60,602 bases of DNA, taken from the NCBI GenBank assembly GCA_045046875.1, contig JASFYY010000020.1, positions 1-60,602 of the forward strand. Reading direction: 5' to 3'. Shown here piece after piece: positions 6,001 to 21,000 of this stretch. The position numbers are program-made. Numbering within the stretch: the stretch's first letter is position 1; each line of letters opens with the position of its first letter. Source of the DNA: Verrucomicrobiota bacterium (lineage in GTDB: Bacteria > Verrucomicrobiota > Verrucomicrobiia > Verrucomicrobiales > DEV007).

Positions 6001-9000
6001 TTGAGCTCTTTCACCATCGCCTCGACCCGCTCGGGGTATTCACGATAAAGATTGCGCTGCTCGCCAATATCCCTGCCCACATGATACAGCTCATTCCTAC
6101 CATCCTCAAAATAATGGATCAACTTCCAACCATCACGTAAATGAATCGCCGAAGGCTCACCACCCTGATTCCCATAATGCGGATAATGCCAGAACAAAGA
6201 ACGCTCAGCCAAAGTCCCCCCCTTTAATACCGGCACCAAACTGACCCCGTCCTGATGCTGCTTGGGCAATAAAGGAACACCCGCCATATCCAAAATAGTG
6301 GGATAAAAATCCGTACCCGTCGCAGGCACATCGGTGCGCTTGCCATCCGTCACCCCCGGCCACTGAATATAATACGGCTGCCGCACGCCGCCCTCCCACT
6401 GCCTCCCTTTGCCCCCGCGCAGTGGCAAAGCACTGGTGGCATAACCATCCCCCGAAGATACTCCGCCATTATCCGAAGTGAATATCACCACTGTATTTTC
6501 CATCAATCCATTTTCCTGCAAAGCTTTGAGCGCATGCCCCACCCCCTCGTCCATCGCCTCCATCATGCCTGCATAAATAGGATTGTCCTGCACCTGCCGT
6601 ACTTCCTGCAAACGGTCCAAAACAAAACGAGGTTCCTCCCGGTCGATCAGTCCCATTGACTCGGCTTTAGCTCGATATTTTTCCCAGCGTTTTTTACTGC
6701 ATTGAATCGGCGCGTGCACCGAATAAAAACTCAACATGGCAAAAAACGGCTGGTCTTTATTTGCGGTAATAAATTTTGCTGTTTCACGCCCGAGCCTCAC
6801 CGGCAGTTCCTCTCCCTGCGGCCCATCTTCAAGCGCCGGATTTTTATAAGGCGGAAAATACCCGCCCACAGGTGATCCCGTGAGATTACCACCCACATTC
6901 ACATCATAACCCTGATCCTCAGGCCCTTTTCCCTCATGCCCCAAATGCCATTTGCCGGCAAAAAAAGTTTTATACCCATGCTCGTGCAGAGCCTCCGCGA
7001 TAGTGACCTCCTCCAGTTCCATCTCCATCTTGTAAGGCGCCGGCAGCAACTTGGTATTGCGCTTCCACTTGTCCGGTTGATTACGCCCCGCGGTTCCACC
7101 GATATAATCTGTGATGCCCACCCTTGCCGGGTATTTGCCGGTTTGAATAGCCGCTCGTGAAGGGCTGCAAACCTGGCAAGCCGAATAGCCATTGGAAAAA
7201 CGCATCGCCTTTTGAGCAATACTATCGATATTCGGAGTCTCGTGAAAAGCACTGCCCTCGCAACTCAGATCCTGACGCCCCAGGTCATCAACCAGGATGA
7301 ACAGAAAATTAGGTTTAGCGCTCTGCGCTTGAACCAGTGACCCCATAAAGAAAAAGATGATTAAGTGATAAATTAATTTCATGATGCAACATTGGACGCC
7401 TCTACACCACCCCGGTCAAGCCAATAAGGGTATTCACAGCTCCCTCCATTTTTTTCGCCAAATACATAATACCGTTTAAGGTGGATCCATGAGATCCTTA
7501 TTTTTATTCTTAACGATTTTTGTCACCCTAAGCACGCTCAGCGCCGCCGAGCAAAAACACGACGCCTACCACTGGAACTCACTAATCGGCAAAGGCATCA
7601 ATCTCGGTAATGCCCTCGACGCCCCCAAAGAAGGCGCTTGGGGAGTCACTCTTAAAGAAGCTTATTTCGAACTGATTTCCCAAGCTGGATTCGACTCGAT
7701 CCGCATCCCGGTGAACTGGGCCAATCACGCTGCAAAAAAAGCCCCTTACACCATCGACCCGACCTTTCTCGCCCGGGTGGATTGGGCCGTTGAACAAGCT
7801 CTCTCCCGCGATCTGGTAGTCATCCTCAACATCCACCACTACGACGAACTCTACAGCCACCCGAAAAAAAACCGCGCTCGCTTTGTGGCCTTGTGGAAAC
7901 AACTAGCTGAGCACTACCAAAACTCCCCGGCCACACTGTATTTCGAAATTCTCAATGAACCTCACGGAGAACTCACCAGCGAGCTATGGAACCAATACCT
8001 CGAACAAAGCCTCACCGTGATCCGCAAAGATAAAAACATCATTGTCACTTTTCACTTTTACCTGCCGTTTAAATTCACTCATCAAGGAGCTTCCTGGGTT
8101 GGCGAGCAAAGTCAAAACTGGCTGAGCACCGAATGGCACGGCTCGACCGCCGATAAACAAGAACTTATCGGTTTTTTTGACAAAGCCCACCAATGGTCAA
8201 AAACCCAGCAACGCCCTCTCTAATATGGGAGAATTTGGTGCCTATAACCGCGCTGATACCGCATCGAGAGTGCGTTGGATGGCCTTTGTGAAAAGCGAAG
8301 CTCATAAAAAGAATTTCTCCTGGGCCTACTGGGAATTTTGCTCCAGCTTCGGACTTTACGACTTGAAAACCAAAAAGTGGCGAGGCGAACTGCTCAGCGC
8401 ACTGATTGACAAGGAATGACTGACTAATGACAAGATCCGCGAAGTAAGAAACGATTCTTCTTCTAAGGTGCTAACGAAATTATCCGACATCAAATACTGC
8501 TTGCTTTCTACTTACATTTTTTTGCATAATCGCCATAAATTTTGCATCCAAGTTCAAGCGCCCATCGTAAGCCATATTTGAGAAACAGGAAACCCGGCCC
8601 GTCATGGAAAACAACTCATCTCCTTCAAACAAATCGCTAAGCCCCATTTTATTGCTGGTAGCGGCATTCGCATTCTGCCTCATCATTGGTGGAATCACTT
8701 TAGCAAAAAAATACGCCCCCAAGGCGCTAGCATCCAAAGAACGACATATCGTCAGGAGCGTTGCCGCCTCGCCCTTGAAAGGTAGGACCGCCCGTGTTGA
8801 CCCCGAACTGTTAAAAATCGGCGAAACTACATTTAATACTCTCTGCGCTGCCTGTCACCAGCCCGGCGGCACTGGCAAAGCAGGTTTTGCTCCAGGCATC
8901 CGCAATCACGACTTTCTCGCCCTGGCCTCTGACGATTACCTACGCACTACCATCCGCGCCGGTCGCCCCGGCACGGCCATGGTACCTTGGAGCGCCCTCA

Positions 9001-18000: not shown

Positions 18001-21000
18001 TCACCTGCGTCATCATCGGGCACCTCTACGGCGTGGTGATGGCCGATCGTTTCGCCCGCCGTTTGTTCGGCGACAGCCCGACCGCCTTCCGTAGTTTGAT
18101 CCCGCTTATTTTCACCATGATCCTCTACTCCAGCTTCAGCGTCTGGTTGATCATGCAACCGATGGACATGCGCTCGGCGATGTGATTCTTTCTATTTGTG
18201 AGCTCTAATTTTTCCAGACGACAACTCTTCAAATTACGTCTAGGTGACGTAGGCAACCTTGTGCGCCAGGCTCGCCAGAGCCTCGTAGAAAAAAACACAG
18301 AGGACGAGTCCCCCGCTGCAGAAAGCCCGGCCGAAAACATCAACATCATCCGCCCACCCGGCGCCCTTTCACCCGACAGCGATTTCCTTGCCACCTGCGA
18401 GCGCTGCCACGCCTGCGCCGACGCCTGCCCCCACGAAGGAGTGATTCAAACCTTCGGCCCCTCCCACGGAGCCAACGAAGGCAGCCCTTTCCTCACTCCC
18501 GGAGAAGCTCCCTGCCGCTGGTGCTTCGACACCCCCTGCATCAGCGCCTGCCCCAGTGATGCCCTGCAAATTCCTAAAACAGACAGCCACGAAGCGAAGC
18601 CCCTTGCCGCCATCGCCGCCGCCGTGCTCGATCTCGACAGCTGCCTCAATAATCAAGGCACCATCTGTGACACCTGCGCCCTGATGTGCCCGCCACACAT
18701 CAAAGCCATCAAGATGATCAGCCGCCAGCCCCACATCGACGTCGAGCTCTGCACCGGCTGCGGCATGTGCGCCTACTACTGCGAATCAGAGCCCGGCTCG
18801 ATCACGATTGTGCCGCTCTCTTAAAGTTAACCGATATTCTGTGTCTCTCTGCGTTTCAGCCATCAGTTGAATACGAAAATCATCTTAAACTCCTCCCTCC
18901 CCTGAGAAAAACCTTTCCGCCCAGACAGGTATCCTCTCCAACGTTTTTTGAAAAACCTCACCAGATCGGAATTCACCCAATAGCCGAAAGGGAGTCTCAT
19001 ATGAGCTGTTATCATAAATGGTAACCCGCGGTAACAACGCGATGGCTCGTTCCAAATTATCCAAATTGCGCAAGTAACGAGCCACTATCTTTTCTTCCGG
19101 AACAGAATGCCCTCCTCGCTTGACACGAGATTTCACCCGCTTCACAGCCATAGCCGAATCCTCAATTCCAATAAATATCAATTGAACATCAAAACCCGCT
19201 TCAACCGCTCCCGCCAAAAATTCAACCTTCTCTCCCACAGGATCGGACAACACCGTTTCAGTCACAAAACTCTGTCCACGCTCGACCATCAAACGACGAA
19301 TAGCCGTCGTTTGTGATGCTGCTTCATATACACCCATGCCTGTTGATGCCCGCAAAACATCCGCGTTCAAAAAAGGAAGCTGCAAAGCAGACAAGTAAAC
19401 ACGGTGAAAAGTGCTCTTCCCTGCACCGTTGGGCCCAGCCAACATGATCAGAACCGGATCCACTACGGTTGAGAAACAATGTTAGCACTCGTTCTCTGAA
19501 TTTCCACCTGCGCTTTTTTGATACCGCTACTGCTTCCTACCACAGATAGGGCTTCATCAATTTTTTTACGGTCAACGGCAGCGAGCATCTTCTTTTCAGC
19601 AGGATAAGATAAGGCCACCTCCATCACCCGCCCTATTGCCGCCCAATGCTCAATTTGTTGAGGCGGCGAGCGATGGAACAACGCCGCCTGCTCCTTTGCC
19701 ACCTCGGCGAGTTCATCGCTAATGCGTATGGACTGACTCATACTTTTACGCTGTGGCAATTTACCACAATTGTCAATCAATATCACTATTCGACACCGCT
19801 CTCGCCGGGTGGGGACACCCGCGCTACGTCACTTCACCACCTTCATCACTCCGCGCATGATCCTCCAATGACCGGGGAAGGTGCAGATGTAGGGATACTC
19901 ACCGGGTTTGTCGGGGGCGAAAAAATTCAGGGTGTAAGAACGCGCAATGCCCAGGGTGATCTGCGGAGTGAAATGCAATACATCGGGATCGTCGGGCACG
20001 TAATTTTTATCCAAGCCGTCCGGTTGACCTGCCATCATGTCCGCTTTGGTTCCAATTTTGTCCAAAGCGCCCTCGTTCACGATCACCATGTTGTGATAAA
20101 GATTGTCCGGATTGCGGAACAGTAACTTCACCGCACTGCCGGCTTTCACCGAGAACTCCGTCGGCACAAATTTCAAATCAGGAGTTGCCGATACGGTCAC
20201 GCTCGAAAGCACACGATTGCTGTATTCCGGCGGCCACACACTGCTCGGGATGCGCCTCATCGCCTCGAGGGCGGAAAACGCCAGGGCGATGTTTTTCTCA
20301 GCGTATTTATCCGATGTCGCCACCAATAACTTAAGACTCTGCTGATCCTGTGATGGAAAACTGGCAATGGCCGGCATCATCGTCTTCACCAGACCTGCCG
20401 AGGATTTTTCCCCAGTGAGCAATTTGCTGAACCGTGGATACAAAGTATCCGGCGACTTGCCACGTCCCGCGCGGGTCACCGCCAAAGCCAACAAAGTATC
20501 GCTCTTTAACAAACGTCCTTCGCCACTGGCAGCGCCAGCACGCAATAACACCGCCTGCGCGCCCGTCCGCACACTGGTCGCCTTGCCTGCCGCCATCAGG
20601 GAAGCGATCGCATCAGCGTGTTTTTTGCTGTCCTCGATCGGCCAGGCCAACAACATCGCCTCCAAAGCCGGCAAAGCCTTATCCGGCGTTTTAGCCGTGC
20701 TTTTCTCCAGCCTTCCCAACAAATACTGCAAGGCATCTTTCTGCCCCGCTTGCCCCACCAGGTAATCCAAAGCGCGACGATGCTGGTCTGCTGCCAATTT
20801 AGAACGGCTAAGAATCTGATCCGCCACCGCCGGACTCAAGTCCATCGTCAACAGCCGCTGCTCATTCGAAAATGGCAGTAGAAAATCGCTTACTTTCTCC
20901 ACCGATGTATCCGTCTGACTAGTCAGATAAGTGAACACGTCATAAGCCGCGTTCACACAACCGGCATCCATCTCCTGATCCAGCACCAACGCCGCCACCG

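What a model noticed while it worked through the whole genome (the two positions that open the first line are those of the whole stretch)
8604..18824. A third, unnamed clade of Tat-exported nitrate-reductase-like molybdoenzymes with its own 8-gene cytochrome c/NapG/NapH [...]
g00758 (872 aa, twin-arginine leader, [4Fe-4S] motif, Cys ligand in a NapA-like 'ARMCMTSA' motif) is neither NapA nor NarB/NasA: it is about 30% identical to both yet 59-96% identical to homologues from 13 phyla. It heads a conserved operon with a four-haem class I cytochrome c (no NapB, C or D), NapG-like and NapH-like genes and two further conserved genes (g00763, g00764). Predicted: an overlooked periplasmic, quinol-fed nitrate (or related oxyanion) reductase.
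Evidence so far: Swiss-Prot best hits NarB 30% and NapA 28-32%; NCBIfam NapA 360 bits against cut 904, NasA 294 against 1000; active-site stretches align with NapA structures 2nya and 2jio. 380 confirmed loci in the species-genome collection, best 80 kept: Verrucomicrobiota, Lentisphaerota, Planctomycetota, Omnitrophota, Eisenbacteria, Latescibacterota, Cloacimonadota, Gemmatimonadota, Chloroflexota, Bacteroidota, Spirochaetota, Myxococcota, Pseudomonadota. Of 79 loci (one 100% identical locus dropped) 66 hold cytochrome + NapG + NapH on the same strand, 48 hold g00763 and 49 g00764. Tree of 34 proteins: the 22 members form one clade (SH-aLRT 100, stem 3.3) apart from 7 NapA-side and 4 Nas/NarB rows. 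The gen [...]
(Added by a program. Inside this text positions count along the whole contig: contig position 1 is position 1 of the stretch shown here. "Call 12" and the like, gene names such as g00115 and contig names such as C1 are that model's own, and its searches are not shown. The text may have been shortened before it was handed on; [...] marks where a part breaks off. The agent that wrote the report below was given it as the finding of a first reader that could run no searches.)

Follow-up and report, generated by a model that had tools for sequence, protein, structure and literature searches.

The report
Unnamed periplasmic nitrate-reductase-like enzyme lineage
This nine-gene operon encodes an exported molybdenum enzyme from a widespread, unstudied branch of the nitrate-reductase family, with its own cytochrome partner and an altered cofactor pocket; it probably lets low-oxygen bacteria respire nitrate, but its substrate is untested.

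Summary
The operon is real: nine same-strand genes at 8604-18824. The 872-aa enzyme fails the NapA and NasA cut-offs. With deeper relatives added, its clade is fully supported (100/100) and nests inside the Nap/Nas radiation, away from formate dehydrogenases. It keeps the Nap/Nas catalytic residues but has invariant changes, including loss of the pterin-binding Arg of the TGR motif. A complex model docks the last haem of the cytochrome on the [4Fe-4S] face (0.65 against best control 0.00). For nitrate: the host has NirK and qNor but no NapA or NarG found, and relatives sit near narX, napA-nirK-qNor or FNR-like boxes. Against: 18 of 50 carriers already have NapA, and 20 of 51 show no other N-oxide respiratory gene. 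Nine paper searches found no description. The scan noted this clade at least eight times before on other DNA. Nitrate about 0.62; another oxyanion about 0.22.

The parts
8604..9962 (+). Cytochrome c, 452 aa: N-terminal hydrophobic anchor and four class I domains (CxxCH at 81, 178, 280, 377), i.e. a duplicated dihaem unit; predicted direct electron donor
   Evidence: invariant Met in each domain of the dihaem unit; complex model
9984..12602 (+). Mo/W-bisPGD catalytic subunit, 872 aa: Tat-type leader, [4Fe-4S] (C48, C51, C55, C83), K85, Mo ligand C191-M192, D206, R412; clade marks R229, I367, E411, V748
12634..13287 (+). NapG-like ferredoxin 1 (core of the operon), 217 aa, 37% identical to E. 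coli NapG
13284..13892 (+). NapG-like ferredoxin 2, 202 aa (duplicate, in a minority of loci)
13889..14905 (+). NapH-like membrane ferredoxin 1, 338 aa (second NapH; two copies in 11 of 80 loci)
15023..15976 (+). NapH-like membrane ferredoxin 2, 317 aa (core type in non-proteobacterial loci)
15973..16590 (+). g00763: signal peptide followed by His-His, Ig-like beta-sandwich and C-terminal membrane helix; probable periplasmic metal-binding (Cu?) protein (inference)
16650..18185 (+). g00764: multi-pass membrane polyferredoxin, 511 aa, distantly NapH-like
18198..18824 (+). NapG/NapF-like ferredoxin, 208 aa, RR motif without a hydrophobic stretch; possible maturation factor (inference)

Best explanation
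The operon encodes a respiratory, periplasmic nitrate reductase of a third lineage within the Nap/Nas radiation, used at low oxygen. Shown: gene content, motifs, fold and tree position. Inferred chain: quinol is oxidised by the NapH/NapG-like pair (by NapC, or a Rieske/cytochrome b complex, in other subgroups). Electrons pass along Met/His class I haems, which take the place of NapB. The C-terminal haem docks at the enzyme's [4Fe-4S] cluster, and electrons go via K85 to Cys-ligated Mo-bisPGD, which abstracts an oxygen from nitrate. In this host, nitrite would go on to NirK and qNor (N2O). The His-His protein, polyferredoxin and last ferredoxin are probably assembly or metal-supply factors (weak inference).
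For: The careful LG+C20 tree puts the clade (100/100) in one group with NapA and Nas/NarB (93/91), inside a nitrate-reductase-like radiation (100/98) apart from Fdh. The AF2 model (pLDDT 93.1) best matches D. desulfuricans NapA 2JIO (TM 0.91 by target). C191, M192, D206, T403, Q405, R412 and K85 are present in every row that covers them among 199 clade sequences. Asp155, Arg354 and the Lys are named as channel or catalytic residues in PMC13223375. RRx[FLT] leader in 106 of 114 full-length homologues. Complex model 0.65 against best control 0.00 (mark reached by 116 of 157 solved and 2 of 215 mismatched pairs; at least 55% contact agreement; partner pLDDT at least 86); the interface joins enzyme residues 68-84 to the haem-4 motif and its Met region. 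The host has a separate assimilatory NasA-NirA-NarK locus, NirK (73) and qNor (122), and no NapA, NarG or NrfA found at 94.7% completeness. 7 of 51 genomes have NirS, NirK or NrfA with no NapA or NarG found. L059 and L063 carry NarX/NarQ-like and Crp-family regulator genes next door. L042 lies in a napA-nirK-qNor island. FNR-like box upstream in 14 of 66 loci against 4% in shuffles.
Against: No activity, mutant or expression data. 18 of 50 carriers already hold an over-cut-off NapA (11 of 16 Proteobacteria, against 33 of 111 in a Kiloniellales sample), so it often does not replace NapA. 20 of 51 genomes show none of NapA, NarG, NirS, NirK, NrfA or NosZ (MAGs, completeness not given, octahaem nitrite reductases not tested). 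Two of the four charged NapA channel residues are lost (E156 to T, D355 to L/F), although Nas-type rows vary there too. The pterin-binding Arg (E. coli R720) is Val in 199 of 199 clade rows against Arg in 118 of 130 others. A plain LG+G4 tree placed the clade outside NapA+Nas (sister node 39.8). This window has no FNR-like box at one mismatch. The cultured deep relative in Microaerobacter geothermalis also has Nar genes, so its nitrate growth proves nothing.
Confidence: 0.62

Rival explanations
1. Same architecture and direction, but the physiological substrate is another high-potential oxyanion (iodate, bromate, selenate, chlorate or similar), which would explain why it is kept beside NapA.
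For: Co-occurs with canonical NapA in 18 of 50 genomes, once in the same island. Invariant channel and pterin-site changes. IdrA-like genes in 10 of 51 genomes, and an idrABP1P2-like cluster divergently adjacent in L078. The 80 nearest loci are mostly marine by record title. NapA itself turns over chlorate and perchlorate (PMC12769810).
Against: Chlorite-dismutase-family genes in only 7 of 51 genomes and 0 of 16 Proteobacteria. No peroxidase pair is conserved in the operon. Two Nap isoforms in one genome are known (Shewanella; PMC6308320, search listing only). Links to nitrate regulators and N-oxide islands. The tree nests it among nitrate reductases.
Confidence: 0.22
2. The enzyme runs oxidatively (e.g. 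on nitrite or a reduced metalloid), handing electrons to the class I cytochrome and on to cbb3/aa3 oxidases.
For: Class I Met/His cytochromes commonly serve as acceptors (own knowledge). The host has cbb3 and aa3 oxidases. NapA is weakly reversible (PMC13223375).
Against: NapG/NapH are in nearly all long loci and NapC in 19 of 23 proteobacterial loci; these are quinol dehydrogenases in known systems. FNR-like boxes. It lacks the AioA features and scores 135 against cut-off 359.
Confidence: 0.08
3. It is a periplasmic formate dehydrogenase or CO2 reductase.
For: The Fdh-alpha profile scores 329.5 bits, about as high as NapA; Fdh folds rank from 8th.
Against: The Fdh His after the ligand is Met192 and the Fdh Arg position is Thr403 in all clade rows. 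Fdh rows form a separate 100/100 group. The host has its own Fdh.
Confidence: 0.02

Closest known systems
NapB-less Nap of Desulfovibrio desulfuricans (napCMADGH; PDB 2JIO/2NAP) and Caldithrix abyssi (napM-A-G..H plus Rieske/cytochrome b; PMC5317091)
   Same: Tat-exported Cys-ligated Mo-bisPGD/[4Fe-4S] enzyme with no NapB; a four-haem c-type cytochrome next to it; NapG/NapH; best structural match.
   Different: 28% structural identity; GQPNAMGE-R(L/F) instead of GQPNACGGVR(D/E); no NapD in the operon or host; two extra conserved genes; pterin Arg lost. Whether the cytochrome is homologous to NapM, and whether the Caldithrix enzyme belongs to this clade, was not testable (no sequence on hand).
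Heterodimeric NapAB (E. coli napFDAGHBC; 2NYA, 3ML1, 1OGY, 9PXT)
   Same: Fold, Cys-Met ligand loop, bridging Lys, channel Asp and Arg; NapG 33-37% and NapH 26-28% identical.
   Different: 32% identity; 360 bits against cut-off 904; no NapB similarity; separate clade; often co-occurs with NapAB.
Assimilatory NasA/NasC/NarB
   Same: GQPNAMG motif, Thr in place of NapA Glu156, 30-34% identity.
   Different: Tat leader, periplasmic cytochrome and quinol-dehydrogenase genes; no nitrite reductase or transporter in the operon; the host has a separate Nas locus.
Qcr-coupled Nap of Campylobacter jejuni (PMC6195509, search listing and abstract start only)
   Same: Precedent for feeding Nap through the cytochrome c pool; fits the Rieske/cytochrome b-linked subgroup (L096).
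   Different: C. jejuni uses canonical NapAB; no such coupling is shown here.

Membership tests
MopB / DMSO reductase superfamily | Mo/W-bisPGD-binding fold with N-terminal [4Fe-4S] | tested here: met
   Pfam PF00384, PF01568, PF04879; model and Foldseek
Nap/Nas nitrate-reductase radiation | Groups with NapA and Nas to the exclusion of Fdh | tested here: met
   100/98 in the careful mixture-model tree; the LG+G4 tree put it sister to NapA+Nas
Nap/Nas nitrate-reductase radiation | Cys-Met ligand loop, bridging Lys, channel Asp155 and Arg354 equivalents | tested here: met
   C191, M192, K85, D206, R412 invariant where covered, 199 rows
NapA | Curated profile cut-off (NF010055, TIGR01706) | tested here: not met
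   359.7/904 and 331.1/930.55; L042 NapA control 977/945. Selenomonas-type monomeric NapAs were not scored, so the cut-off alone is not decisive
NapA | Nests within the NapA clade | tested here: not met
   NapA side 100/99 excludes it
NapA | Glu156, Asp355 and pterin-patch Arg720 conserved | tested here: not met
   T207, L/F413, V748; residues named in PMC13223375
NapA | Twin-arginine export signal | tested here: met
   KRRTLLK; 106 of 114 homologues by motif; export itself not shown
NapA | NapD chaperone and NapB or NapM partner | tested here: inconclusive
   No NapD found in the host genome and no NapB similarity; NapM homology could not be tested
NapA / Nas | Reduces nitrate to nitrite | not testable with these tools
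   needs an assay
NasA/NasC/NarB | Cytoplasmic, linked to nitrite reductase and transporter; profile cut-off | tested here: not met
   294/1000 and 254.5/1100 (the host's own Nas also misses these cut-offs); Tat leader; operon context
Formate dehydrogenase | His after the Cys/Sec ligand and Arg in RGQNN | tested here: not met
   M192, T403

The most novel reading that the evidence does not exclude
The lineage is a new oxyanion-respiring enzyme class. A rebuilt pterin pocket (invariant Arg229 gained, TGR Arg lost) and a directly docking class I cytochrome tune it to a substrate other than nitrate, such as iodate, bromate or selenate, and it is kept alongside NapA across many phyla of low-oxygen waters and sediments.
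Probability: 0.2. Interest if true: 0.85.

Novelty: new variant of a known kind. Interest (0 to 1): 0.62.

Why it matters
At least 1,264 protein clusters (90% identity) score E <= 1e-200 with clade members. The loci come from many phyla, including records from oxygen-poor marine settings. If it reduces nitrate, inventories of who performs the first step of nitrogen loss are incomplete or mislabelled: curated NapA models miss it, and automatic names scatter over generic, 'NapA' and assimilatory 'ferredoxin-nitrate reductase'. It would also give genomes with nirS/nirK but no nap/nar their missing step. If it acts on another oxyanion, it is a new respiratory pathway. Either way, an enzyme that lacks the near-universal pterin-binding Arg is a natural test of what that residue does, and cultured carriers make the test practical.

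Tried and rejected
Nine paper searches found no description of the clade. The library omits most subscription papers. The tree figures and linked tree files of PMC10100899 and PMC12769810 were not seen; the one PMC10100899 supplement held as text (2,471 characters) had no hit. Members may therefore sit unnamed in those trees. Microaerobacter as physiological proof: rejected, it has Nar genes. Caldithrix locus tags: no hit in its supplement, so membership is unknown. No clade member among the 60 best plasmid hits; all 1,431 matching records are under 60% identity. Sequencing runs: no RNA holder listed, so no reads were laid; this says nothing on expression. Promoter/terminator scan: no more than shuffles give. 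Foldseek of the His-His protein had no match at E <= 0.001; VIA hits to copper proteins (CrdA Z 9.5, rmsd 2.7, 100 aligned; PmoD Z 9.4, rmsd 3.3, 101 aligned) tie with generic Ig folds, so copper is a lead only. The first ORF clustering missed genes in GC-rich loci and was replaced by profile mapping. The first tree contained one empty row (L089) and was redone. (Per)chlorate respiration was judged unlikely. No AU test was run.
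Full report
Observation. Nine genes on the + strand fill 8604-18824: a cytochrome c with four CxxCH motifs, the 872-aa molybdoenzyme, two NapG-like and two NapH-like genes, a 205-aa protein with no Pfam or NCBIfam hit, a 511-aa membrane polyferredoxin and a last NapG/F-like ferredoxin. 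The enzyme scores 359.7 against NapA (cut-off 904), 329.5 against Fdh-alpha (666) and 294 against NasA (1000). It is 32% identical to E. coli NapA, 30-34% to Nas-type rows and 28% to FdhF; NapA and Nas are 29-35% identical to each other.

The family. The 120 best homologues are 69-95% identical apart from the query's own cluster. The 50%-representative library shows a steep fall-off through three deep relatives: P0121 53%, P0122 52% (Microaerobacter geothermalis) and P0123 42%. Searches from two other subgroups returned 1,279 and 1,264 clusters at E <= 1e-200. It is patchy: 1 of 300 other sampled genomes of the host's phylum carries it, and 3 of 111 in a Kiloniellales sample where only 7 candidates per genome were scored. 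Patchy spread with high identity across phyla suggests lateral transfer (inference; not tested).

Operon conservation (80 loci of 380). Cytochrome + NapG + NapH lie on the same strand in 67 of 80 loci, and in 54 of the 57 with enough flank. The His-His protein is in 70 of 80 and the polyferredoxin in 50 of 80. The profiles were built from these same loci, so the counts describe conservation and are not an independent test. The cytochrome is built from a dihaem unit with an invariant Met in each domain; it has two haem motifs in 32 loci, four in 32, six in 2 and three in 3. NapC/NirT accompanies 19 of 23 proteobacterial loci and none of 57 others. In L096 a Rieske protein, a cytochrome b and an NAD(P)-binding flavoprotein precede a multi-domain cytochrome. 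So the electron inlet varies while the cytochrome, enzyme, NapG, NapH and His-His protein stay. Molybdenum-cofactor genes (MoaA, MoeA, MOSC) recur nearby.

Trees. A 64-row LG+G4 tree gave the clade with its deep relatives SH-aLRT 100 and placed it sister to NapA+Nas, with weak support for its immediate position. A 35-row careful LG+C20 tree, chosen from the 153 rows to span each group, gave 100/100 for the clade. It sits in an unresolved fork with the NapA side and the Nas/NarB side (93/91), inside a 100/98 group that excludes Fdh. It is a third lineage; its branching order is unresolved. Only E. coli NapA and FdhF among the rows are biochemically characterised; others are labelled by annotation or context.

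Active site. The AF2 model (pLDDT 93.1, pTM 0.92) best matches D. desulfuricans NapA. Across 199 clade sequences the four FeS cysteines, K85, C191, M192, D206, T403, Q405 and R412 do not vary where covered; the Fdh His and Arg are absent. PMC13223375 (parts 1-3 of 5 read) names Arg354, Asp155, Glu156 and Asp355 in the NapA channel and Arg720 in a pterin-binding patch. The clade keeps the first two and replaces Glu156 (Thr) and Asp355 (Leu/Phe/Ile/Tyr), as some Nas-type rows also do. It has Val for Arg720 in 199 of 199 rows, against Arg in 118 of 130 outside rows. It gains an invariant Arg229 in the other pterin patch (4 of 130 outside), plus I367 and E411.

Partner. ESMFold2 on enzyme residues 45-869 with the last two cytochrome domains scored 0.65 against a best control of 0.00 (mark reached by 116 of 157 solved and 2 of 215 mismatched pairs; counts hold only roughly with own alignments; runs agree in at least 55% of contacts; partner pLDDT at least 86). 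The interface joins enzyme residues 68-84, which include cluster ligand C83, to the haem-4 motif and the region of its Met. This supports but does not show binding. NapB binds the cluster-side face of NapA in solved complexes, so some likeness may be recalled, although the cytochrome shows no similarity to NapB. The first two domains were not modelled.

His-His protein. In nearly all loci a signal-peptide-like stretch ending in Ala-x-Ala is followed by His-His. The model is an Ig-like sandwich with a C-terminal helix. Copper proteins CrdA, PmoD and P19/FtrA rank high but tie with generic Ig folds, and one Atlas cluster has YtkA on 18% of members. A periplasmic metal-binding role is likely; the metal is unknown.

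Substrate, for nitrate. The host (94.7% complete) has four PF00384 genes: this one, a Nas beside NirA and NarK, an Fdh and NuoG. It has NirK and qNor, and no NarG, NrfA, NosZ or NapD found. Among 50 carriers plus the host, 19 have NirS-like, NirK or NrfA genes, and 7 of these have no NapA or NarG found; two of them (G301, G339) also have NosZ. G339 (L063) and L059 have NarX/NarQ-like and Crp-family regulator genes just downstream. L042 continues into napA, nirK, qNor and an NO-stress repair gene. An FNR-like box lies upstream in 14 of 66 loci, 10 of them proteobacterial, against 4% of shuffles; this window has none at one mismatch.

Substrate, against. Canonical NapA is over cut-off in 18 of 50 carriers: 11 of 16 Proteobacteria plus one cut by a contig end, and 0 of 14 in G301-G314. 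The Kiloniellales sample has 33 of 111; it is not a matched control, and kin are not independent. 20 of 51 genomes show none of the six N-oxide genes tested. IdrA-like genes occur in 10 of 51, and an idrABP1P2-like cluster abuts L078 (the Idr label is my reading of its four-gene layout). Chlorite-dismutase-family genes are rare (7 of 51). Names such as Elusimicrobia among members suggest it is not only marine. That Deferrisoma camini was described as an Fe(III)/sulfur reducer is recalled, not checked.

Literature. Seen: PMC10100899 abstract, section 5, passages and its one text supplement; PMC12769810 passages and section 28; PMC13223375 main text, which lists four nap operon types, none matching; PMC5317091 passages and a supplement search; PMC11896075 passages; PMC9119079 whole; PMC6195509 and PMC6308320 listings only. 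Nine searches found no account of this lineage; tree figures were not seen. NapB-less Nap with a four-haem cytochrome and NapGH is known, so the architecture is a variant of a known kind.

Earlier notes. The scan recorded look-alikes in 12 genomes; the eight notes shown reach a similar reading. They are unchecked AI notes and are not counted as support.

Verdict. A real, widespread, uncharacterised lineage that works like Nap but is not NapA or Nas by the tests applied. Nitrate reduction 0.62, another oxyanion 0.22, oxidative direction 0.08, Fdh 0.02. New variant of a known kind; interest 0.62.

Noticed in passing
window 18885-19786 (-): Zeta-toxin/AAA_33-like gene and ParD-like gene directly after the operon; a toxin-antitoxin-like pair, seen in only one other locus (L001).
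   Followed up: partly
window 7489-8419 (+): A glycoside-hydrolase-like gene (label by eye) is split into 244-aa and 80-aa ORFs, while L001-L004 have one 336-358-aa ORF: frameshift or internal deletion.
   Followed up: no
window 14906-15022: 117-bp gap between the two NapH-like genes with a short inverted-repeat-like stretch.
   Followed up: no
L078:927-6602 (-): IdrA-like, Rieske and two peroxidase genes (idrABP1P2-like) divergent from the operon; IdrA-like genes in 10 of 51 genomes, including non-Proteobacteria.
   Followed up: partly
L096:1162-15579 (-): Subgroup with NAD(P)-flavoprotein, Rieske, cytochrome b and a 906-aa cytochrome; the His-His domain is in one frame with NapH, and a YHS-like insert precedes the polyferredoxin.
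   Followed up: partly
L081:866-6776 (host C136): The host's assimilatory locus has a DmsB/DmsC-like Fe-S membrane gene between the flavoprotein and NasA, and its NasA belongs to a separate GQCNAMGSRL branch.
   Followed up: no
L056, L058: In L056 the enzyme has none of the partner genes nearby; in L058 only napC and the cytochrome remain.
   Followed up: no
L040:371-8452: The operon is split into two divergent halves: cytochrome + enzyme on one strand, napG/napH/His-His/polyferredoxin on the other.
   Followed up: no
P0200, P0213, P0241, P0267: Another unnamed long-branch MopB group (about 935 aa, some with Tat-like leaders, no Cys at the ligand position in the alignment) among the representatives.
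   Followed up: no
L004, L016, L026, L043, L046, L049; L042, L059, L061, L063, L067, L076, L078-L080: A cluster of 420-480-aa proteins (one scored as alginate-export family) recurs near 6 loci, and DUF255 thioredoxin-domain genes near 9 loci.
   Followed up: no
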